Source of the DNA: Promethearchaeota archaeon
Lineage (GTDB): Archaea; Asgardarchaeota; Lokiarchaeia; Sigyniarchaeales; SOKP01
Assembly: GCA_008080735.1 (NCBI GenBank)
Contig: SHMW01000004.1
Coordinates: 1 to 64,000 of the forward strand
Reading direction: 5' to 3'
Length of the DNA stretch: 64,000 nucleotides
This document shows positions 52,332 through 62,203 of the stretch, in pieces. The position numbers and the translations under genes were made by a program. Positions within the stretch are counted from its first letter, which is position 1. Each line of letters opens with the position of its first letter. Under the pieces are notes generated by a model that saw only the letters and a program-made list of their open reading frames with translations, was not told where the DNA came from and ran no database searches.

Positions 52332-54047
52332 TTAATATGTTAATTCTAAAAATTGAGCGACTTCTGTCAAGGATGCTCTATAACGTTTAAAACTATAAAG
52401 ATCTGGTCCAAATATATGGATTAATTTTTTTATTATCTCATTAGGCGCTTCTTTAGGAAATAGTTTGTATTTTTCGTATTTTCTTTCTTCAATTACTATT
52501 GCTGATTTCAGCTCAAATAATTTGTTAATTGCTTCAGTATTTGGATAATTCAGTTCCACGGTAATCAATTCCCCAGATTGAGGTATTTTTTCTATGAGTT
52601 CTTCTTTGGTTCCACATTCTAAACCTTTTTCTGTAATAGTTAGTACCTTATCACAATCAGAAATAATGGTTTCTGGACCGTGAACTATTAATGCTACATG
52701 AAACTCTCTTTTTACATCTTCTAAATATTTCTTAAATTTCTCGTATTGGAGCCGATTTAAAATACCCTTTGGAAGTGAGAACATAATGATATCAGGAGAT
52801 TGTATAAGAGCCCGAGCAATACAAAATAGAAAATAATCTAACGCTTTTAAATCAGATACTGTATTTTTTCTTTTATTATACACTCCCGTAATTTGAAGTG
52901 CCCTCTTCCTAAGTTGTCGTCTTTCGCGATAATCCTGTAGAAATGATACGCTTTTCCAAAAAGGTCCTTTCGTCATCCATTCATCAAACAGAGTTGTAAG
53001 CTCAGACTCTCGTAAAATATTCATAAATTCTTCTTTGCTCCGTTGTCCCTTTATCTTTGTTTCCACATTATATTTAATCGCCTTTTTCAGCTTCATGCCC
53101 GCCATTTTAGAATCAATTGCTTCAGGAACAATGAATATCTTTTCTAAATCCTCTTCAGTGGTTAACTGAATAAATTTACCGAATATTTTTATAGTACCCG
53201 AAAACTGATGGCTTTTTCCTGCGATCGTAGAAAAAAATCTCATTATATTAATCTGTTCTCTACTTGATTCTGAGGAACCTTCATATAAAATTCCTAATGA
53301 TTGTCCTCTCGTAAGCCTAAAACTTATATCTTCCAATTCATCGCTGATTGAGACATCTTCTAATAAAAGATGTTGATAATTTTTGTAAAAATTCCGAATC
53401 TCTAAAATAGATAGAATAATATCTATTAATTCCTCAATTAAATCGATAATATGAGGTGGATTTAACTCATCCCAATTTCTAATAATATCTAATTGGGAAA
53501 ACTCTTCTAGTTTTATTATTCGGGACAGAAAACGTGAGAAATTTATATTTGGTTGAAGCGGGTAATTTTCAAAATTGATATCCAATTGTACATAAAACCC
53601 TGGAAAATAAATTCTTACTCTTCGATGATAAGGTATCTGGTCGAGTTGATAATTCTCAAAATTATCATTGAGAAGTTCTAATTCTCTATCTACTTCTTTT
53701 AAATGGTGTTGAAATTCCCTCTCGATTAATTTATCAATTCTCTGAATGATTTTTCTTGGACTTATTAAACCATCCTCGTCAAAATCCGGTTCGACCAAGA
53801 TTTCATTAAAATCTACTGTCGTTTCTATTGGGGTATTGATTTTTAATAGTGGAACACCTTTTTCTAATACATCCGTGTTAGTAAAGAATAAAACCTCGAT
53901 AAAACTTTTTTTATATTCTAAATCTAAAACGGTCGCTAATCCAAAGGTCCCTTGCCGAAAGATTAACCAATATTTTTCTGAAAACCGAATTGCATCAGTT
54001 ATTTTTTTTCTGAGAATTTCTAATTCTTCTTTCCTTGTTCTACTCAA
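52332..54047 (-). CDS. UEV/RWD-like domain(s) fused to a degenerate ABC ATPase domain
   Basis: LDINFENYPLQPNINF..NWDELNPPHIIDLIEEL; ABC-like ISFRLTRGQSLGIL and IARALIQSPDIIMFSLP without Walker A lysine or Walker B DE; likely TTG start 54047 overlaps the upstream stop. Confidence 0.65.
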   Translation of the reverse strand: MSRTRKEELEILRKKITDAIRFSEKYWLIFRQGTFGLATVLDLEYKKSFIEVLFFTNTDVLEKGVPLLKINTPIETTVDFNEILVEPDFDEDGLISPRKIIQRIDKLIEREFQHHLKEVDRELELLNDNFENYQLDQIPYHRRVRIYFPGFYVQLDINFENYPLQPNINFSRFLSRIIKLEEFSQLDIIRNWDELNPPHIIDLIEELIDIILSILEIRNFYKNYQHLLLEDVSISDELEDISFRLTRGQSLGILYEGSSESSREQINIMRFFSTIAGKSHQFSGTIKIFGKFIQLTTEEDLEKIFIVPEAIDSKMAGMKLKKAIKYNVETKIKGQRSKEEFMNILRESELTTLFDEWMTKGPFWKSVSFLQDYRERRQLRKRALQITGVYNKRKNTVSDLKALDYFLFCIARALIQSPDIIMFSLPKGILNRLQYEKFKKYLEDVKREFHVALIVHGPETIISDCDKVLTITEKGLECGTKEELIEKIPQSGELITVELNYPNTEAINKLFELKSAIVIEERKYEKYKLFPKEAPNEIIKKLIHIFGPDLYSFKRYRASLTEVAQFLELTY

Positions 54048-57000
54048 TTTCTGGCACCTCCATTGCTCTAAATCTAAAGTATTGTTCCATAACACTGTCC
54101 GATTGCTTTAATCCAAGTATACTGTTTTCTCCAAACGTTTTTTCTAGCTCCTCGCGAACTTCATTCAAATTAAGGTTCGTGAGCAATGCAAAATCCGTCC
54201 CTACCTTATTTTCCAATGCCTTGTCTATTCCTTCAATTTTCTCTAATCTCTCAACAGCATCTTCTTGAATATCGTAGAAGAAAAGCTCAATAGTTCTCCC
54301 ATCACCGGGTAATTGAGACAATAGTTGTCTAGGCGTGCCAAAATCGATCATACCCCTTCCTCTTCCAAATACAACTACTTTATTACAGAATCGTGATTCT
54401 TCAGGATAATGACTGATTACTATTAAGGTGGTATTATATTTCTCATTAATTTGAGTAAGTGCGAGCCATAAATTCTCACGCACAACTGGGTCTAAGCCCG
54501 AAGTAGGCTCGTCCAGTATGCAAAAGATTGGATTATGAATCAGACCCATAGCAATACTCACCCGACGCTTCTGCCCACCCGATAGATTTTTTACAAGCTC
54601 ATTCATCTTATCTTCAATTTCGAGACTTCGAAGAAGTCGTTTGGACTTGCTTACTATTTCTTTTTCGGTTAGACCATATTGCTTTCCAAAATAGATAAGG
54701 TTTTGCAGAGTAGTAAAATCAGTATAGATCTTGCCTAAATCTTGAGGAACATAACCATAAATAGGTCTAATTTTCCGTTTATTTTTTTTTACATCCATTC
54801 CATAAATTTCACATATTCCCGTATATTTGCGCATTCCTAATAAAGCTTTTACGAAGGTGGACTTACCCGCTCCACTTTCTCCTAAAACGCCCAATATCTC
54901 ACCGTGTTCTAATTCAAGCGAAACACCATCCACAATTAGTTTCTTTCCGATATAAATATCTAAATTTTCACAATAAACCGCTGAAAAACGTTTAAGATAA
55001 TTTATATTTAAATCTCCTTCTAGTCCGATCATTGACTTTAAAATTTTCATCACGCGTTCATTAAGATAAGACAATATACTGATGACGATGAAAGCTACTA
55101 TGAGCAGTGCTTCTGATATCATTAACCATATTAATAAATTACTCCACGGCAATGGATCAAATGCCTGGTCATATCGAATTTCATCTATGATCACTAAACC
55201 ATATGGCGTGTTTCTTAAATCGCCCCCAAATGATGGAATATCGCCAACCCCTCCCGTATTTAGACTAATGCATCGTCTATACCATTCGGTAAGAGTTTTG
55301 ATATCTTCGGGTTGTGAACGATATCGATATAAAGCAATCGAACCTAAATAGGTAGATATGAATGAGGAGGGTAATTCAGTTAATTGGGAAAGAAACGGGA
55401 TAATATTAAAGCTCCCCTCCTCTTTTTGGGCGCCTTTTAAAAATTCTATTGCAGCAATTTTAGAAAGAGGTTCTAAATTCAATATTTTATGAATTTCCAA
55501 TCCATAATATGTAGAGATTACATCCGAATGAAATCCGTGAATAATGGAAAATCCTCCATCGGGATTCTGTCCAGAAGAGATCCAGTGAGTAAGAGTATTT
55601 TGATCTATTAGATTAAGAGCATTTAGATCATTCAAACTTTTAATTGCCCAATAGGTACTTTCTGTGGTGGAAATATTCGTGTCAATCAGATCTTTAAGAA
55701 GTAACTCATAAGCAGGTCCGAAATATGATAAAAGTAACTCAAAATCCTCCCCAAGTTTGAATCCTCCATCCGGATTCTGTAAATTAGCTAAATAATTGAC
55801 TGTTGCGGTCACATTTGGGAGATTTTGAAGCGTATACGGTTTAAATAACTGGTATAGAAATACAGCGCAGTAAGTGGAAAATATTGATGAATTAGCTAAA
55901 GGTTGGGAGCCGAATCCCCCATCCTCGGGATTATAACACGAATTTACAAAATTTATTATGCTATTTATATCTATGTATGTTATATATTTTTCTGAATTCC
56001 AATTATAAAGAGCCAAAACGCCGAGATAATTGATTTGAAGATTCGTCTCACCGATGAGACCATTGAAGGCTTGATATTCATACAACCAATTATAATAGTT
56101 TATTTTAAAAGAATCATCAATTACTAAACTACCATTTTTTTCTAATAAAAAGATTGAATTCATTCCACCCCATCCCGATGTGAAATCGGAAACGTTTATC
56201 GCCCAATGAGGACCAAATCCGCCGTCCAAATTAGTACAATTTGTTACAAATTCTTTAGTTTGTGTTTGATTAATAAAAAAACTATTATTAAAATGATAAA
56301 TATTCCATAATGAATAATAAGTTGCCGATATGTCTGAAATCGCGGCTTGAGTAGATGATCTGAACCCCCCATCCAATGGATTATACAATAGATTATAATA
56401 TCCGAAAATTGCTAATTCTTCTGAAGAATTATATGTATACCCCATTTCTAAATACGCTCGAACGCCATAATATGTGGTTTCAGCGGTCACTGTCGTATAG
56501 GAACGATTAGAATACCTATAACTCCCAGAAAATCCTATTGAGTAGTTCCCTAACAATTTAATATAAGCGGTAATAGACGCATTATTCGTTTCGAGAATAG
56601 AGTTAGCGTTGAGTCTTTTTACGAGCTTAATTGCATAGTATGTAGAGATGATATCTGCCTCGGGGACTTCCTCATTATATTTAAATCCCATCCCCCCTTC
56701 ATCTAATGAATTATTGATGTAATCGATTGTCCGATTTATTCTATCTTGATGCTCGGGTGCATCTAAATAACTCCCGTTGAGCAAATCGATCGTTTCAATA
56801 ACCTTATATGTAGAATACATATCGCCAAGACCTCCTATATCAGAATAAGACCCATCGGGATTTTGTTTTTCAAATAAATAATCTAAGAAAAATTCCCGCT
56901 TACTCTCGCTTAGGTTGGGATTATTCACAGGATGGACAAAATGAGATGTGTTAAATAATGGACTGGAAAAATTAATGGAATCGATAGCTCGATAATTCGA

Positions 57001-57207
57001 ATCTATTGTTGGTTCTACGAACAAGTTGTCGGGATTTTGATGAGTGCCAGAAAAATACGCCATATTGTTTTTATAGCTTTTCACTTGAGCTTCACTAAAA
57101 TATTCAATAAACGGAATATTGATTAATCCTAATACAATTAATTCTCCGATGAACAACCCGATAATCAATAATAAATACTTGATTCGGCGTTTTTTCTTTC
57201 TGTCTAT
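54040..57207 (-). CDS. Signal anchor + prenyltransferase/squalene-oxidase repeat domain + TM + intact ABC ATPase
   Basis: Repeats QNPDGSY, NPLDGGF, NLDGGFG, NPEDGGFG, QNPDGGF x2; GESGAGKST, LSGGQ, LDEPTSGLD, ISH; start either TTG 57168 or ATA 57207. Confidence 0.85.
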   Translation of the reverse strand: MDRKKKRRIKYLLLIIGLFIGELIVLGLINIPFIEYFSEAQVKSYKNNMAYFSGTHQNPDNLFVEPTIDSNYRAIDSINFSSPLFNTSHFVHPVNNPNLSESKREFFLDYLFEKQNPDGSYSDIGGLGDMYSTYKVIETIDLLNGSYLDAPEHQDRINRTIDYINNSLDEGGMGFKYNEEVPEADIISTYYAIKLVKRLNANSILETNNASITAYIKLLGNYSIGFSGSYRYSNRSYTTVTAETTYYGVRAYLEMGYTYNSSEELAIFGYYNLLYNPLDGGFRSSTQAAISDISATYYSLWNIYHFNNSFFINQTQTKEFVTNCTNLDGGFGPHWAINVSDFTSGWGGMNSIFLLEKNGSLVIDDSFKINYYNWLYEYQAFNGLIGETNLQINYLGVLALYNWNSEKYITYIDINSIINFVNSCYNPEDGGFGSQPLANSSIFSTYCAVFLYQLFKPYTLQNLPNVTATVNYLANLQNPDGGFKLGEDFELLLSYFGPAYELLLKDLIDTNISTTESTYWAIKSLNDLNALNLIDQNTLTHWISSGQNPDGGFSIIHGFHSDVISTYYGLEIHKILNLEPLSKIAAIEFLKGAQKEEGSFNIIPFLSQLTELPSSFISTYLGSIALYRYRSQPEDIKTLTEWYRRCISLNTGGVGDIPSFGGDLRNTPYGLVIIDEIRYDQAFDPLPWSNLLIWLMISEALLIVAFIVISILSYLNERVMKILKSMIGLEGDLNINYLKRFSAVYCENLDIYIGKKLIVDGVSLELEHGEILGVLGESGAGKSTFVKALLGMRKYTGICEIYGMDVKKNKRKIRPIYGYVPQDLGKIYTDFTTLQNLIYFGKQYGLTEKEIVSKSKRLLRSLEIEDKMNELVKNLSGGQKRRVSIAMGLIHNPIFCILDEPTSGLDPVVRENLWLALTQINEKYNTTLIVISHYPEESRFCNKVVVFGRGRGMIDFGTPRQLLSQLPGDGRTIELFFYDIQEDAVERLEKIEGIDKALENKVGTDFALLTNLNLNEVREELEKTFGENSILGLKQSDSVMEQYFRFRAMEVPEIE

Positions 57208-57238
57208 TATTATTCACCTGGTTTATGTATTGCTTTTT

Positions 57239-58269
57239 CTACTTTTCTAATAATTCTAATCTATCTTTCTCTTCCTCTCTTTTGATTCGTAATTGGAAAT
57301 AACGTCTAAAATTTGCAACATCTCTGCTCATTGCCATTATCTTGACTTCTCTTTCCAGTAAATAGTCGATAAGAGGGAGTAAATTTTCCTCGAAATCTTC
57401 TAAAAATACCTCGACTACATCATTACCTACTCGAGATACTTCTTCACAATGCTCAAAATCCGCTATTATATCAATGATCTCTCCTGTGAGGTTTTCAATC
57501 GATAATCTCGCTAGTAATCCATTGCTTGGTAGAGAGGAAATTAAATTATGGGGGGTATCGAAATCAAGTAATTTTCCTTTCCTTAAGATTGCGGTCTTAT
57601 CACAGACAAGTGCCGCCTCTAAATCATGTGTGATGATAAACATTGTAGTCCCTAGTTTTCGGTTTAATTTCTTAAGATAATTAAGGATATCATAACGCTT
57701 ATTGGCGTCTACACCTTTTATCCAAATTAATTGAGATAATTAATTTGTGTGGTAGGTTCATCTAAAAATAAGACGCCTGGATTATGAATAAGCCCTATAG
57801 CCATTGAGACTCTCTTTTTTTCTCCTCCACTAAGACTTTTTAGTGGGTTTTTCCATGTATCTTCGGGAATATCAAGTATAGAAAATAACTCTCTAGCACG
57901 TTTTCTTGCGTCCTTTTTTGTCATCCCGTAATTTGATCCGAATATTTCTACATTAACTAGCGGGGAAAGTTCATAATAGAGATTTAGTAATTCTAACTGT
58001 GGAACATAACCAATATTACTTAATATCTCAGAGTGATTTCTTTTCTTAGCAGGATTCAGACCAGTGACCATTATATCACCTGACCAATTGTTTTTCTTGA
58101 TTTGACAAGTTAGAACTCTAATTATAGTTGTCTTTCCAGCTCCAGATATTCCAAATAATCCAATTAATTCCTTTTTTTTAACATTGAAAGATACATTATG
58201 AATAATTTGAGAATCACCAAAAAACACATTAAGATTCTCAACATCAACAGATACTTGATTTAAAATCAA
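57239..58269 (-). CDS. ABC ATP-binding protein interrupted by a 32-nt candidate intron; join(57749..58269, 57239..57716), 332 aa if spliced
   Basis: GISGAGKTT, LSGGE, LFLDEPTT in the 5' part; GVDANKRYDILNYLKKLNRKLGTTMFIITHDLE resumes in another frame 32 nt later. Confidence 0.85.
57717..57748 (-). other. Candidate BHB-type mRNA intron (32 nt)
   Basis: ACAAATTAATTATCTCAATTAATTTGGATAAA; 10-bp perfect stem with ATCTC loop; bulges AC|A and AA|A flank TACC/GATA; removal restores frame and D-loop. Confidence 0.8.
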
Positions 58270-58476
58270 ACACCACCACTAAGTAGGAAGTTTTTCTCAT
58301 TTTCATTACAATAAATTATACCTAAATTAGTAAACATTACTTTAATTAATGATTTAATGATATTTACAATTTTTAAAATTATGTTAATAAGAAAATTGTT
58401 TAAATTATTTTATTTTTTGTGGGATTTTGACTACTCTTAAAACTCTAAATAACCCGAGAGAATTTTTAAATGAAAT

Positions 58477-59697
58477 TTACTTATTATATCGTTTTAATAT
58501 CAAATGAATCCAATTAATAGTATTAATAAAAATATTGGGAGTGGTATCTGAGTCTTGTGGTGTGGAATGCGAACCATAATTTGATAAAATTCCAAAAGTT
58601 TTATAAACTGAAGATCTTTCAATATGAGTGTCTTGTTTATTTTCAGGAGTTTCTTTTAGGATTTTATGTTTTTCCAGCGTTTCTAGATTTTTCATCATAT
58701 TTTTTGGCTTTTTCCCGAAGCTTTTGATAATTTCTTTCACCACCCCTCAAGAACATTTTTAATCAATGATAAGGGTGCTTTACGTTTGGAGTCAAACAAT
58801 TCCTGCGCTTCATTAAAATCTCGAAGAGCAGTTTTAAAATTGTATTTAATTAATAGCTGATTAATTTCTTTTATTTCTCTTTTAAATTGATCCACAATTT
58901 TTTGTTTTAATATGTCATTCTGTGTTTTGCATTTCTCAGTGTTAAAGTCTTCAATATTTTCTGTAGCTCTTTGGCATACCTTTGTTCCGTTTTCTTTAAT
59001 TTCTATTAATTCATTTAATCTAGGTTCAAAAGTACTATTTTCGAGGATTTTATTTATTTTATCTAATATTTTAGGTAATTCTTGAAAATTCTCTTTATAT
59101 TTTCCCCTTAATTCTTTCTTTGATAATTTATCTAAAATATTTCTAAATATAGTTAGAGCTTCGGCATAATTTCTATAACTTTGAAGGTATTTATCTAATT
59201 TATAATAAATTTCTCCTAAAATTAAGAAATTTTTGACTTTAAGTTTAATATCCCCTATTTCCTTACTAATATCAATTGATTTCTTAGCAAAATTAATAGC
59301 TTTATTATTTTCTCCTTTACTTTTATAAATCACTGCTAAATCGTAATATGTTGCACAGATTTCTCGTCTAATATTACTTTCTTGAGCAATCTTTAAGGCA
59401 TTTAGAGTAGATTGCTCAGATCTCTCGTAATTCCCTTTTCTGAGATAAATCTTCCCTAAATCTAATAAAACTATGATCTTGCAGCCCTTTAAATTATTCC
59501 CTTCACTATATTCTAACATATAATACAATATCTCCTCTTCATTATCGAACTCTTCAAGAGTTCCTAAAGTTGAAAGAATATTTATAAAAAATGTAAGAAT
59601 TCTATCAGAATCTTGAATATTTTCATAAGAATTTAATGCTAGATTTATATAATTGTTAAATTGATCTATATCTCTCAATTCGAGATAAATATCAGAT
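58477..59697 (-). pseudogene. 5'-truncated TPR-repeat gene with a frameshifted C-terminal helical (Abi_C/HEPN-like?) domain
   Basis: TPRs LDLGKIYLRKGNYERS, YYDLAVIYKSKGENNKAI, LILGEIYYKLDKY; frame open back to the junction near 59700; frameshift in GAGGGGTGGTG near 58740 links to VVKEIIKSF..ILSNYGSHS. Confidence 0.6.
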
Positions 59698-59823
59698 AAA
59701 TAATCCTATCAATTCTCCTTCATTAACTTCAAATGATACATCATGGATAATATGGGCATCTCCAAAAGAGACATTTAGTTTATCCACCTCTACGACTGGA
59801 ATAACATTATTTATAGCATTCAT
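59692..59823 (-). pseudogene. Orphan 5' end (43 codons) of the ABC ATP-binding gene
   Basis: MNAINNVIPVVEVDKLNVSFGDAHIIHDVSFEVNEGELIGLFI* matches by eye VDVENLNVFFGDSQIIHNVSFNVKKKELIGLF of the gene starting at 58269; ATG lies 2 nt after the permease stop. Confidence 0.8.
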
Positions 59824-59825
59824 AT

Positions 59826-61067
59826 TTACACTTCATACCTCCGTTTGTAGAATAGAATGAATGTGACTATATTCAATACGATGCTTATCCCAAGAAGGAA
59901 AAAGAAATGAAATCCAAATACAGTCTTTCCTTTTGCCAAAATAGCTTCCACCATCGGACTTCCATGTGTTAATGGCAATATATTCGCAAAGACTCGTAAA
60001 TAGATGGGCATCGATCCTAATGGAACAAAAATACCACTGAGCAAAATAATAACAATGAAAAATGCAAAGAATAACTGATTTGCCTCCGTTTTACTCTTAC
60101 TGAGAGAACTAATGAAAAGACCGAGACTAATTCCAGTGTATCCTAGGATATATATCGCTAGGAACAGCTCAGATAAGGACCCCTTCAAATAAAGACCGCC
60201 AAATATAGAAGCTAAAAGTATGAGAAGAGTTTGTAGAAATAATACTAACGAGTAAGTGATATATTTCGAGATGAGTACTTCTGCTCGTTTTACGGGGGTG
60301 AGTAATAATCGTGCTATGGGTTTTTCTTTCACGATCACTAGAATCGTCAATACATTTGCGATTCCGAAAATCATCAAAGGCAAAATCATAATCAAATTCG
60401 AGTTCAAGCTGGCATTATAATCTGCTGGAATTGAAAACTCTTCATTCGGCTCTAATACAATTTGAGGAGTCAAATTATTCGCTGAGATAAAAAGATTCAC
60501 AGAATCATATATCGCATTCAATATTTTTTGAATATCTGCGATTCGTGAAGAATCTGGTATACACTCGATCGAGGCGGGGAGCTCATATTCAAGCATCTCA
60601 CTAAATTCTAAAGGAACAACAATAATGCATTTTATTTCTCCATGTAATAACATATTTCTAGCAGTTTCCATCGAATATCTTTGTTCGGGGTTTGTGGTAT
60701 TATAAAATGCTATTAGATTCAAAGAGTCTGTCTCATTGACCGCGTTTATGTATGGAATGGTATAATTATCCCATGTGGTTTCTGTATAATTATTATTGGG
60801 ATTAATAAAGGTGTTTGAATCATTTGAGACGATTACTACGGGAAATGCACTTCCATTACCCGCTTCTTGATTCATAAAAGAAAATAACATAATGATTCCA
60901 GGAGGTAATAGTAGCGCGATGACTAAATTCCACGGATCAGTCCGTAATAGTCTAAATTCTTTTTTAATTTGTTTAAAAAGGCGAAATAAGCTGTTCTTCA
61001 AATTTATTATTGTTCTTTTGAAAGAACTCTTTTGATTTTTATCTGTTTTCTGTTCTTTCACCATCAA
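59826..61067 (-). CDS. ABC-2 type permease with a large extracytoplasmic domain
   Basis: IKKEFRLLRTD, RLLLTPVKRAEVLISK, LLSGIFVPLGSMP, LPLTH. Confidence 0.9.
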   Translation of the reverse strand: MMVKEQKTDKNQKSSFKRTIINLKNSLFRLFKQIKKEFRLLRTDPWNLVIALLLPPGIIMLFSFMNQEAGNGSAFPVVIVSNDSNTFINPNNNYTETTWDNYTIPYINAVNETDSLNLIAFYNTTNPEQRYSMETARNMLLHGEIKCIIVVPLEFSEMLEYELPASIECIPDSSRIADIQKILNAIYDSVNLFISANNLTPQIVLEPNEEFSIPADYNASLNSNLIMILPLMIFGIANVLTILVIVKEKPIARLLLTPVKRAEVLISKYITYSLVLFLQTLLILLASIFGGLYLKGSLSELFLAIYILGYTGISLGLFISSLSKSKTEANQLFFAFFIVIILLSGIFVPLGSMPIYLRVFANILPLTHGSPMVEAILAKGKTVFGFHFFFLLGISIVLNIVTFILFYKRRYEV

Positions 61068-62203
61068 ACCTCCACCTTTTTAAACATATATACTATATAA
61101 GCTAATGCATCATATATAAGCGCAATAATTACTACAATCAACAATGAATAGATATCTACGGGCAATCCTTTCAACGTGATTTCCAATACCAATGGTATTG
61201 AATGATACAATGGGAACGAATAAATTATTGCTTGCATAAATACGGGCAAATTATCGGCACTAATAAACTGCCCTGAAAATATTAATATGACAATAAAAAA
61301 CATAATATATAACTGATTTGCTTGTTGATCGGTGCCACTTAGAGACGAAATAAATAGACCTATTGACACCCCAGAAAATCCAATGGCAAGCAGAACTAGA
61401 AATAATTCAAAGAGAGATCCAAGACTATAAAGCCCAAAGAGAGCTGTCGCAACAAAGATTTCCGCTACTTGTATGCTCATTATTGCTGAATTTGCGATAA
61501 GTTTACTTAATATAATTGACCTTTTTGAGGTTGGAGTAATCAGCATTCGAGGTAATGGTCCTTCAGAAACAATTGATAAGCAAGATAAATTCATCGTGGT
61601 TCCAATAATAATTAACGGAATAGTCAGCGCAAATGCGTAGTTCACGACCTGAGCCTCCCAGAATGGTACTTCAAATTCTAAATATGGTATGAAATATGTG
61701 AAATTGGCGGTTTTTCCAATTTTTATTCTAAATTGAGCGATTGGCTCGAACATGGTCACGTTTATAGCACTTACTGCATCTGAATCTGAGCCGTCTATAT
61801 AAAAAATTATTGGAATATCAGTATTATTCTCAACTGTTTCCGAAAAATTTTCGGGAAGGACTAAGAACACATCAATGACTTCATCTTTTAACCATTGGGT
61901 ATAAAATGATTTTGCTTCTTCATATTCTTCTGGATTAGTAACATTACGATAGCCCTTGAATCCAAAAGATGATAAATTACCTTCAAACACATTAATAAAA
62001 TCGTCCGCATATTGGGACGAATTTTCGGGGAAATTCTCATATGTGGGAATACTATCTTTTGAAATAATAGATACATTGAAGAATTCAGTAGGACCCCCTC
62101 CTGAGGTTAACCCGAATACTATAATTAAGATCAGTGGGATTGCAAATAAGAGAATTAGAGTACGCTTATCACTTCGTATTCTCCCAAACTCCTTTCTTAT
62201 CAA
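61064..62203 (-). CDS. ABC-2 type permease with a large extracytoplasmic domain
   Basis: RKEFGRIRSDKRT, RMLITPTSKRSIILSK, FSGQF..NLP, FPLYH; ATGA overlap with the next permease. Confidence 0.9.
   Translation of the reverse strand: MIRKEFGRIRSDKRTLILLFAIPLILIIVFGLTSGGGPTEFFNVSIISKDSIPTYENFPENSSQYADDFINVFEGNLSSFGFKGYRNVTNPEEYEEAKSFYTQWLKDEVIDVFLVLPENFSETVENNTDIPIIFYIDGSDSDAVSAINVTMFEPIAQFRIKIGKTANFTYFIPYLEFEVPFWEAQVVNYAFALTIPLIIIGTTMNLSCLSIVSEGPLPRMLITPTSKRSIILSKLIANSAIMSIQVAEIFVATALFGLYSLGSLFELFLVLLAIGFSGVSIGLFISSLSGTDQQANQLYIMFFIVILIFSGQFISADNLPVFMQAIIYSFPLYHSIPLVLEITLKGLPVDIYSLLIVVIIALIYDALAYIVYMFKKVEV

What the first reader, a model, noticed from the sequence alone, without database searches (positions are those of the whole stretch)
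57713..57757. 32-nt bulge-helix-bulge intron candidate splitting an ABC ATPase at its D-loop
Seen: on the minus strand the gene reads GAT GAA CCT ACC AC|ACAAATTAATT-ATCTC-AATTAATTTG-GATAAA|A GGT GTA GAC. The insert adds stops and a frameshift, so the ORF track shows two fragments. It folds as exon helix ACC/GGT, 3-nt bulge AAA, 4-bp central helix TACC/GATA (one C-A mismatch), 3-nt bulge ACA, then a perfect 10-bp stem. Established: archaeal splicing endonucleases (EndA) cut after the second base of each 3-nt bulge. Applying that rule removes exactly 57717-57748 and gives LFLDEPTT-GVDANKR, matching LDEPTS-GLDPVVR in the neighbouring intact ATPase; the joined frame is 999 nt with no other lesion. 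BHB introns are typical of tRNA and rRNA; the mRNA case I know is cbf5 in some Crenarchaeota. Inference: a tRNA-type intron in the mRNA of a transport gene in a probable Asgard archaeon.
Basis: partly seen in the sequence, partly recalled or inferred. Interest (0 to 1): 0.95.

Follow-up and report, generated by a model that had tools for sequence, protein, structure and literature searches.

The report
tRNA-type intron splits Asgard ABC-ATPase gene
A 32-base insert that breaks a transporter ATPase gene of a Loki-type Asgard archaeon has the shape of the introns that archaea cut out of tRNAs. Comparison with about 150 related gene copies indicates it is cut out of the messenger RNA, which published work documents inside an archaeal coding sequence for one gene only (cbf5).

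Summary
Observation confirmed. On the minus strand, window 57717-57748 is a 32-nt insert between the Walker B motif (LFLDEPT) and the D-loop (TGVD) of a DrrA-like ABC-2 ATPase gene. With its flanks it forms helix / 3-nt bulge / 4-bp helix / 3-nt bulge / 10-bp hairpin. The central helix has one C-A mismatch.

Cutting after the second base of each bulge gives a 999-nt, 332-codon frame with no other lesion.

The single sequence is weak evidence. The fold z-score is only -1.9, and loose BHB-like motifs occur about once per 65 nt in this 34% GC genome.

The comparative evidence is strong:
- 37 of about 150 orthologous copies carry a 31-34 nt insert at exactly this codon. They come from independent Promethearchaeota MAGs and metagenomes.
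- The rest read PTTGVD without a break.
- Hairpin sequences differ between lineages, but the bulge-helix-bulge geometry is kept. 93.5% of pair cells are paired (13-48% in slid controls) and 8 of 13 pairs show compensatory changes.
- Every complete copy becomes a full-length frame after rule-based splicing.
- dN/dS is 0.06-0.18 between intron-bearing copies.
- The genome encodes two EndA subunits and two RtcB ligases.

Splicing itself is inferred, not shown. The scan had already noted orthologous and other such introns in Asgard genomes.

The parts
57749..58269 (-). Exon 1 of the ABC-2-type (DrrA-like) ATPase gene. It holds 173 codons from TTG 58269 (Walker A, signature LSGGE, Walker B LFLDEPT) plus the first two bases (AC) of the split Thr codon.
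   Evidence: Pfam ABC_tran, E 1e-24, profile positions 2-136 of 137. The start position agrees with the ATG of the intact orthologue L027.
57717..57748 (-). 32-nt BHB intron: A, 10-bp stem arm, loop ATCTC, stem arm, GATA, AA. Read in the exon 1 frame it gives a TAA stop after 8 codons, and its length shifts the frame.
   Evidence: Absent at exactly this point in 14 of 20 orthologues. Present with length 31-34 nt in 37 independent loci besides this window.
57239..57716 (-). Exon 2: the third base (A) of the split Thr codon, then the D-loop GVD, the H-loop region (FIITHD) and the C-terminal regulatory domain; 158 codons plus a stop.
   Evidence: open frame, P0002; orthologues 55-86% identical. 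No start codon until Met25 of this piece.
57751..57757 (-). 5' exon strand of the BHB: outer helix ACC (57757-57755) and central helix TACC (57754-57751). These are the wobble base of the Glu codon, the Pro codon and the first Thr codon.
   Evidence: columns 7-13 pair with columns 45-54. Synonymous positions covary with their partners; codon choice here is restricted in intron-bearing copies only.
57748..57750 (-). 5' bulge ACA. Predicted cut between 57749 and 57748.
   Evidence: ACA is invariant in 26 of 26 distinct intron-bearing sequences. Cut rule from PMC2738675.
57723..57747 (-). Intron-internal hairpin (h'): perfect 10-bp stem with a 5-nt loop.
   Evidence: The stem sequence differs completely in other lineages but a stem is kept.
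57719..57722 (-). 3' strand of the central helix (GATA), inside the intron. It pairs with exon TACC with one C-A mismatch.
   Evidence: Relatives have GGTA, AGTT or GGTT, each matching its own exon. Close relatives have GGTA, GGCA or GATA.
57713..57718 (-). 3' bulge AAA (57718-57716; predicted cut between 57717 and 57716) and the 3' exon strand of the outer helix, GGT (57715-57713, the Gly codon).
   Evidence: the Gly wobble base covaries with the Glu wobble base (GC 9, AU 8, GU 6 of 26).

Best explanation
The insert is an archaeal bulge-helix-bulge (tRNA-type) intron inside the coding sequence of an ABC-2 exporter ATPase.

Inferred mechanism:
1. The gene is transcribed with the 32 nt.
2. Exon and intron bases fold into an outer 3-bp exon-exon helix, a 4-bp exon-intron helix flanked by two 3-nt bulges on opposite strands, and an intron hairpin.
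3. The host's heteromeric splicing endonuclease (two EndA-family subunits) cuts after the second base of each bulge.
4. RtcB joins the exons, recreating the Thr codon AC|A and the reading frame LFLDEPT-T-GVD.

Unspliced mRNA can only give a 181-residue truncated protein without the D-loop and H-loop.

Shown here: the anatomy, exact frame restoration, conservation at one codon, covariation, purifying selection on intron-bearing genes, and presence of the enzymes. Inferred: cleavage and ligation of this transcript.

The intron is old in this gene family. It tracks the host lineage and has been removed precisely many times, probably by recombination with intronless alleles or copies.
For: 1. Exact fit. 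The BHB rule removes 57717-57748 and gives a 999-nt frame. The product PTTGVD equals the uninterrupted sequence of about 110 intronless orthologues.

2. Recurrence in independent data.
- The genome search set: 5 of 19 related genomes besides this one. These genomes reappear in the next set.
- Species-representative genome contigs: 15 of 67 loci.
- Metagenome contigs: 19 of 78 loci.
- Three further loci, from JGI and Logan assemblies.
- All sit at the same codon. Lengths are 31, 32, 33 or 34 nt, so no single frameshift can rescue them, and the 33-nt form carries a stop.

3. Structure, tested on 26 distinct sequences.
- 93.5% of pair cells are paired, against 13-48% when partners are slid by 1-3 columns.
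- 8 of 13 pairs have changes on both sides, and 0 of 500 shuffles reach the covariation score.
- The central helix occurs as TACC/GGTA, AACT/AGTT, AACC/GGTT and GACT/AGTT.
- The outer helix pairs the Glu wobble base with the Gly wobble base (A-U, G-C, G-U).
- Minimum-energy folds of L137, L127, L046 and L032 reproduce the textbook hBHBh' shape.

4. Function is kept.
- All 24 complete intron-bearing genes give 303-361 aa frames after rule-based splicing.
- dN/dS is 0.06-0.18 between intron-bearing pairs.
- This copy and L026 have dS 0.53 yet identical introns.

5. Exon codons are constrained only where an intron is present.
- First Thr codon is ACC or ACT in 27 of 27 intron-bearing copies, against 44 of 98 intronless ones.
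- Second Thr codon is ACA in 26 of 27, against 33 of 98.

6. Machinery.
- Two EndA-family genes are present, one matching the catalytic half and one the structural half of fused enzymes. This fits the (alpha beta)2 broad-specificity enzyme reported for Asgard archaea (PMC5829648).
- Two RtcB genes are present.
- tRNA genes of the same genome carry clean hBHBh' introns of 18-28 nt.
Against: - No RNA evidence for this lineage. The 5.8-billion protein collection holds no full-length or junction-spanning protein more than 75% identical to this copy.
- The central helix of this copy has a C-A mismatch, and RNAfold does not form it.
- The single-sequence fold is not significant (z -1.88).
- BHB-like motifs are frequent by chance in this AT-rich genome. 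My genome-wide scan (motif plus ORF joining) did not exceed its controls: 390 against 327-370. The motif alone therefore proves nothing.
- Archaeal transcription and translation are coupled, so some transcripts should be translated before splicing.
Confidence: 0.88

Rival explanations
1. The gene is a decaying pseudogene, broken by a small palindromic insertion (a MITE-like element or a replication slip), and the BHB likeness is chance.
For: Loose BHB-like motifs are common in this genome (128,274 hits). The fold z-score is only -1.88. The central helix has a mismatch.
Against: - The same site is occupied in 37 other independent loci, with different insert sequences and covarying helices.
- Both halves stay open and full length, and dN/dS is 0.06-0.18.
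- The hairpin occurs once in the genome, and the flanks repeat only one base.
Confidence: 0.03
2. The insert stays in the mRNA and ribosomes skip it: translational bypassing as in phage T4 gene 60 or the byp elements of yeast mitochondria, or a programmed frameshift.
For: A hairpin and an early stop codon directly after the take-off region resemble gene 60. This would explain a functional gene without any RNA processing.
Against: - There are no matching take-off and landing codons. The triplet before GGN is AAA, AGA, TAA, TCA, TGA, TTA, AAT, ACA or CAA in different copies.
- Lengths of 31-34 nt fall in all three frame classes.
- Conserved pairing between exon bases and intron bases, and the two 3-nt bulges, have no role in bypassing.
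Confidence: 0.03
3. The motif is cut by EndA but mainly as a control or decay point: splicing is inefficient or conditional, so the intron acts as a negative regulator rather than a neutral passenger.
For: - A negative regulatory role was proposed for the cbf5 intron (PMC2738675).
- The intron evolves much more slowly than fourfold synonymous sites: 0.89 against 0.48 identity at 80-90% protein identity.
- The relaxed central helix in this clade could lower cutting efficiency.
Against: - Nothing here measures efficiency.
- Slow intron evolution is expected anyway, because 24 of the 32 intron positions are paired.
- At least 17 independent presence/absence changes suggest that the intron is dispensable.

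This reading refines the best explanation rather than replacing it.
Confidence: 0.05
4. Assembly or sequencing artefact in this MAG.
For: None beyond the fact that the genome is a 140-contig metagenome assembly with 7% estimated contamination.
Against: Identical or near-identical inserts appear in assemblies from different studies and pipelines: NCBI MAGs, JGI metagenomes and a Logan assembly of SRR7048228.
Confidence: 0.01

Closest known systems
cbf5 (pseudouridine synthase) pre-mRNA intron of Desulfurococcales and Sulfolobales (Watanabe 2002; Yokobori 2009, PMC2738675)
   Same: - A short BHB intron inside a coding sequence that disrupts the frame.
- Cut sites between the 2nd and 3rd bulge residues coincide with the exon borders.
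- Relaxed motifs handled by a hetero-oligomeric endonuclease.
- Located at a catalytic motif.
- Patchy distribution explained by secondary loss.
   Different: - Different gene (ABC-2 transporter ATPase, Walker B / D-loop junction) and different phylum (Promethearchaeota, Asgard).
- cbf5 of this genome is uninterrupted.
- Presence and absence are far more scattered here, with at least 17 changes among 127 sequences.
- Splicing of cbf5 was shown by cDNA and in vitro cleavage. Here it is inferred.
BHB intron in the 5' UTR of Haloferax volcanii HVO_1309 (PMC7714728)
   Same: An mRNA substrate of the tRNA splicing endonuclease outside tRNA and rRNA. The excised part is expected to circularise.
   Different: That intron (46 nt) lies in an untranslated leader and does not interrupt a reading frame. 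It was shown by circRNA-seq and in vitro cleavage.
Archaeal tRNA introns, including the abundant multi-intron tRNA genes of Asgard archaea (PMC11291895; bioRxiv 10.64898/2026.10.13.758758)
   Same: The same hBHBh' architecture and size range. tRNA genes of this genome carry 18-28 nt examples. The same enzymes are presumed to act.
   Different: The host RNA is a translated mRNA. The exon strands of the motif are codons, so structure and coding constrain the same bases. Neither paper mentions introns in coding genes.
Unconventional HAC1/XBP1 mRNA splicing in eukaryotes (IRE1 cleavage; ligation by tRNA ligase or RtcB)
   Same: A small frame-changing intron (26 nt in XBP1) is removed from a cytoplasmic mRNA by a structure-specific endonuclease, and RtcB-type ligation follows. 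This comparison rests on my own knowledge.
   Different: The nuclease is IRE1, not a tRNA splicing endonuclease. The sites are two stem-loops, not a BHB. That splicing is stress-regulated. No homology is implied.

Membership tests
Archaeal BHB (splicing-endonuclease) intron | Two 3-nt bulges on opposite strands, separated by a 4-bp helix | tested here: met
   bulges ACA and AAA, helix TACC/GATA (3 of 4 pairs in this copy); the helix is 97% paired across 26 distinct sequences, and 23 of 26 have all four pairs.
Archaeal BHB (splicing-endonuclease) intron | Flanking helices h (exon-exon) and h' (intron-internal) | tested here: met
   ACC/GGT and a perfect 10-bp stem; h is 96% paired with A-U/G-C/G-U covariation, and the two outer h' pairs are 100% paired with 8 double changes each.
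Archaeal BHB (splicing-endonuclease) intron | Cutting after the 2nd bulge base on each strand yields the mature sequence | tested here: met
   the frame is restored in all 31 intron-bearing loci tested (this copy included); the product equals the intronless orthologues.
Archaeal BHB (splicing-endonuclease) intron | The host encodes the splicing endonuclease and an RtcB ligase | tested here: met
   two EndA-family proteins (200 and 205 aa, TIGR00324 above its cut-off); two RtcB genes (570 and 556 bits).
Archaeal BHB (splicing-endonuclease) intron | Cleavage and exon ligation observed (cDNA, circular intron, or in vitro cutting) | not testable with these tools
   No transcript data could be reached. 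Searches found no junction-spanning product for this lineage.
cbf5-type pre-mRNA intron (strict sense) | The intron lies in the cbf5 gene at the catalytic Asp codon | tested here: not met
   cbf5 of this genome is one open 340-aa frame without stops. The intron studied here is in an ABC ATPase gene.
Translational bypass element (T4 gene 60 / byp type) | Matching take-off and landing codons flank the gap | tested here: not met
   the take-off would be ACA, but the triplet before the resumed frame varies (AAA, AGA, TAA, TCA, TGA, TTA, AAT, CAA) and is ACA in one lineage only.
MITE or other repeated DNA insertion | Several copies in the genome and a target-site duplication | tested here: not met
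   a single copy with up to 2 mismatches in 4.15 Mb. The flanks share only one base (A).
Group I or group II self-splicing intron | A ribozyme core of hundreds of nucleotides | tested here: not met
   The insert is 32 nt; no intron family of Rfam matches window 57200-58300.

The most novel reading that the evidence does not exclude
This intron may be one visible member of a large, evolutionarily fluid population of EndA/RtcB-spliced micro-introns in protein-coding genes of Loki-type Asgard archaea. These cells would then splice messenger RNAs routinely. Introns would sit at conserved motifs and would be exchanged or erased by recombination between intron-plus and intron-minus alleles. Mosaic divergence that ends at the intron site in sister pairs hints at this.
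Probability: 0.55. Interest if true: 0.9.

Novelty: new member of a known kind. Interest (0 to 1): 0.78.

Why it matters
Since 2002, splicing of an archaeal coding sequence by the tRNA machinery has been documented for one gene, cbf5, in Crenarchaeota. A 2020 study still called cbf5 the only such mRNA, apart from a haloarchaeal 5' UTR.

This case is in the archaeal group closest to eukaryotes. It has dozens of natural variants that serve as a ready-made mutational series. It shows that:
- protein-coding genes in Asgard genomes can be mis-annotated as two fragments or as pseudogenes;
- coding and RNA-structure constraints act on the same codons;
- such introns are lost precisely and often.

It also gives a compact, testable substrate (about 60 nt) for Asgard EndA and RtcB. 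It bears on how endonuclease/ligase-type mRNA splicing, as in HAC1/XBP1, could arise from tRNA processing.

Tried and rejected
1. Genome-wide search for further coding-sequence BHB introns in this genome.
- I used a relaxed hBHBh' pattern plus the requirement that rule-based removal joins two stop-free stretches of at least 70 codons. This gave 390 hits.
- Controls with the splice sites displaced by 1-2 nt gave 327-370.
- A paralogue-spanning filter gave 12, against 10-16 in controls.
- The scan is not specific, because gene boundaries pass it. I make no claim on numbers. Only the focal site stood out, with 32 paralogue hits spanning the junction.

2. Same-site introns in other ABC ATPases of this genome: none.

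3. Other candidates inside the window: six further pattern hits all look like gene boundaries.

4. Transcript-level evidence: two searches of the 5.8-billion protein collection, for a full-length or junction-spanning product close to this copy, found nothing above 75% identity. None of the intron-bearing lineages has an identical uninterrupted protein among the hits.

5. Reverse transcriptase as an agent of intron loss: no RVT_1 match in this 93%-complete genome.

6. RNAalifold on the MAFFT alignment recovered only the outer helix and the base of the hairpin. The central helix is supported by pair counts and by single-sequence folds of relatives.

7. PNAS 2011 (PMC3064391) on archaeal intron evolution is not held and could not be read.

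Full report
**The sequence.** On the minus strand the window reads GAT GAA CCT ACC AC, then 32 nt, then A GGT GTA GAC.
- Exon 1 (58269-57749) encodes 173 residues with a full ABC_tran match that ends at the Walker B motif LFLDEPT.
- Exon 2 (57716-57239) is open for 158 codons and starts with the D-loop GVD.
- Read through, the insert gives TAA after eight codons and shifts the frame, which explains the two ORF fragments.
- The insert holds a perfect 10-bp inverted repeat that occurs once in the 4.15-Mb, 33.6% GC genome.

**The motif in this copy.** The topology is that of an archaeal hBHBh' motif.
- The 5' strand runs ACC-TACC-ACA-stem.
- The 3' strand runs stem-GATA-AAA-GGT.
- The central helix has a C-A mismatch.
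- RNAfold forms the outer helix and the hairpin but not the central helix, and the energy is unremarkable (z -1.88).
- A relaxed BHB pattern hits this AT-rich genome 128,274 times, so the shape alone is weak evidence.
- A hit with exactly the position and length that homology requires is expected with a probability of about 3e-4 to 7e-4.

**Orthologues decide the matter.**
- The C-terminal half finds one clear orthologue in each of 19 related genomes, next to the same 1040-1090-aa fusion protein.
- In 14 genomes the gene is continuous and reads P-T-T-G-V-D. In five genomes, plus this one, an insert of 31-34 nt sits between AC and the third base of the second Thr codon.
- A scan of species-representative genomes gave 15 of 67 loci with the insert. 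These largely include the five genomes above.
- A scan of metagenome contigs gave 19 of 78.
- Three closer relatives from JGI and Logan assemblies carry it too.
- Record titles name Promethearchaeota, Promethearchaeia and similar Asgard labels.
- Independent assemblies rule out an artefact.

**Structure conservation.** Hairpin sequences differ completely between lineages. Examples are CAAATTAATT..., CTATTAAGTT..., TCCATACTAGCG... and TTTTTCAGTT.... The geometry stays fixed.
- On 26 distinct sequences (alignment A2), 93.5% of pair cells form standard pairs, against 13-48% when partners are slid.
- 8 of 13 pairs show changes on both sides, and no shuffle of 500 reaches the covariation score.
- The central helix appears as TACC/GGTA, AACT/AGTT, AACC/GGTT and GACT/AGTT.
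- The outermost pair links the wobble base of the Glu codon to the wobble base of the Gly codon 40 nt downstream (A-U 8, G-C 9, G-U 6).
- The 5' bulge is always ACA.
- Folds of L137, L127, L046 and L032 give the textbook shape without any constraint.
- Codon choice at the exon strands is restricted only in intron-bearing copies.

**The genes are alive.**
- Applying the rule (cut between the second and third bulge residues, as stated for cbf5 in PMC2738675) turns every complete intron-bearing locus into a 303-361 aa frame. This is the length range of intronless copies.
- dN/dS between intron-bearing pairs is 0.06-0.18.
- This copy and L026 differ at synonymous sites (dS 0.53) yet have identical introns.
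- In the own clade the central helix tolerates GATA, GGCA or GGTA. This fits a broad-specificity enzyme.

**Machinery.**
- The genome has two EndA-family genes of 200 and 205 aa. One matches the catalytic half and the other the structural half of fused enzymes. This is as expected for the (alpha beta)2 enzyme with the L1 loop reported for Asgard archaea (PMC5829648).
- It has two RtcB genes.
- ARAGORN finds only 26 tRNAs, 16 of them with introns. Several carry clean hBHBh' motifs of 18-28 nt.
- cbf5 itself is uninterrupted.

**Evolution.**
- On a FastTree of 127 distinct spliced proteins, the 26 intron-bearing rows need 22 changes of state, at least 17 of them forced by well-supported branches. 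This is no fewer than shuffled labels need.
- Intron identity nevertheless follows host protein identity (Spearman 0.58), and intron types are clade-specific.
- The simplest reading is an old intron, vertical descent and many precise losses.
- Some intron-plus/intron-minus sister pairs show mosaic divergence that switches at or next to the intron site. This suggests recombination between alleles.
- No reverse transcriptase was found.

**Rivals.**
- Pseudogene: rejected by selection and recurrence.
- Bypassing or frameshifting: rejected by the missing landing codon, the three length classes and the exon-intron pairing.
- Repeated DNA element: rejected by the single copy.
- Artefact: rejected by independent assemblies.
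- Still open: how efficient or regulated the splicing is.

**Literature and earlier notes.**
- Papers I could search report BHB introns in one coding sequence (cbf5) and one 5' UTR (PMC2738675, PMC7714728).
- Papers on Asgard introns treat tRNA genes only.
- Earlier notes of this scan describe other such introns in this genome, and an orthologous ABC-ATPase intron in another genome for which environmental-RNA support is claimed. I could not verify the RNA claim. The comparative part agrees with my own results.

Noticed in passing
L146 vs L150; L041 vs L076/L107 (loci): Intron-plus and intron-minus sister genes show mosaic divergence that changes at the intron site. L146 vs L150 has 8-21 differences per 45 nt upstream of the junction and 0-5 downstream. 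L041 vs L107 has 15 differences in the 45 nt just upstream and 0-7 elsewhere. This looks like recombination or conversion tracts tied to intron loss or gain.
   Followed up: partly
whole genome G000: ARAGORN finds only 26 tRNA genes in a 93%-complete genome, 16 of them with introns. Many tRNA genes are probably hidden by multiple or non-canonical introns, as reported for other Asgard archaea.
   Followed up: no
window 54040-62203, minus strand: The intron-bearing ATPase lies in a conserved cluster: two ABC-2 permeases (61064-62203, 59826-61067), the ATPase, and a 1042-aa protein that combines a prenyltransferase alpha-alpha toroid domain with a second ABC ATPase (54040-57168). In this genome a 313-aa TPR protein ORF (58737-59678) lies between permease and ATPase. 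In L177-L179 the ATPase follows the permease within about 200 nt.
   Followed up: partly
L030 / G002 contig 22 (protein P0004, 530 aa) and P0008: Some intronless orthologues are annotated as 530-aa proteins (open frame 533 aa), about 190 residues longer than the usual 330-350 aa. This could be an N-terminal extension or a fusion.
   Followed up: no
window 57768-57851, plus strand: A sub-threshold Rfam match to the cyanobacterial sRNA PsrR1 (27.7 bits against a gathering score of 42, E 0.008) lies antisense to exon 1. It is most likely chance in AT-rich sequence.
   Followed up: no
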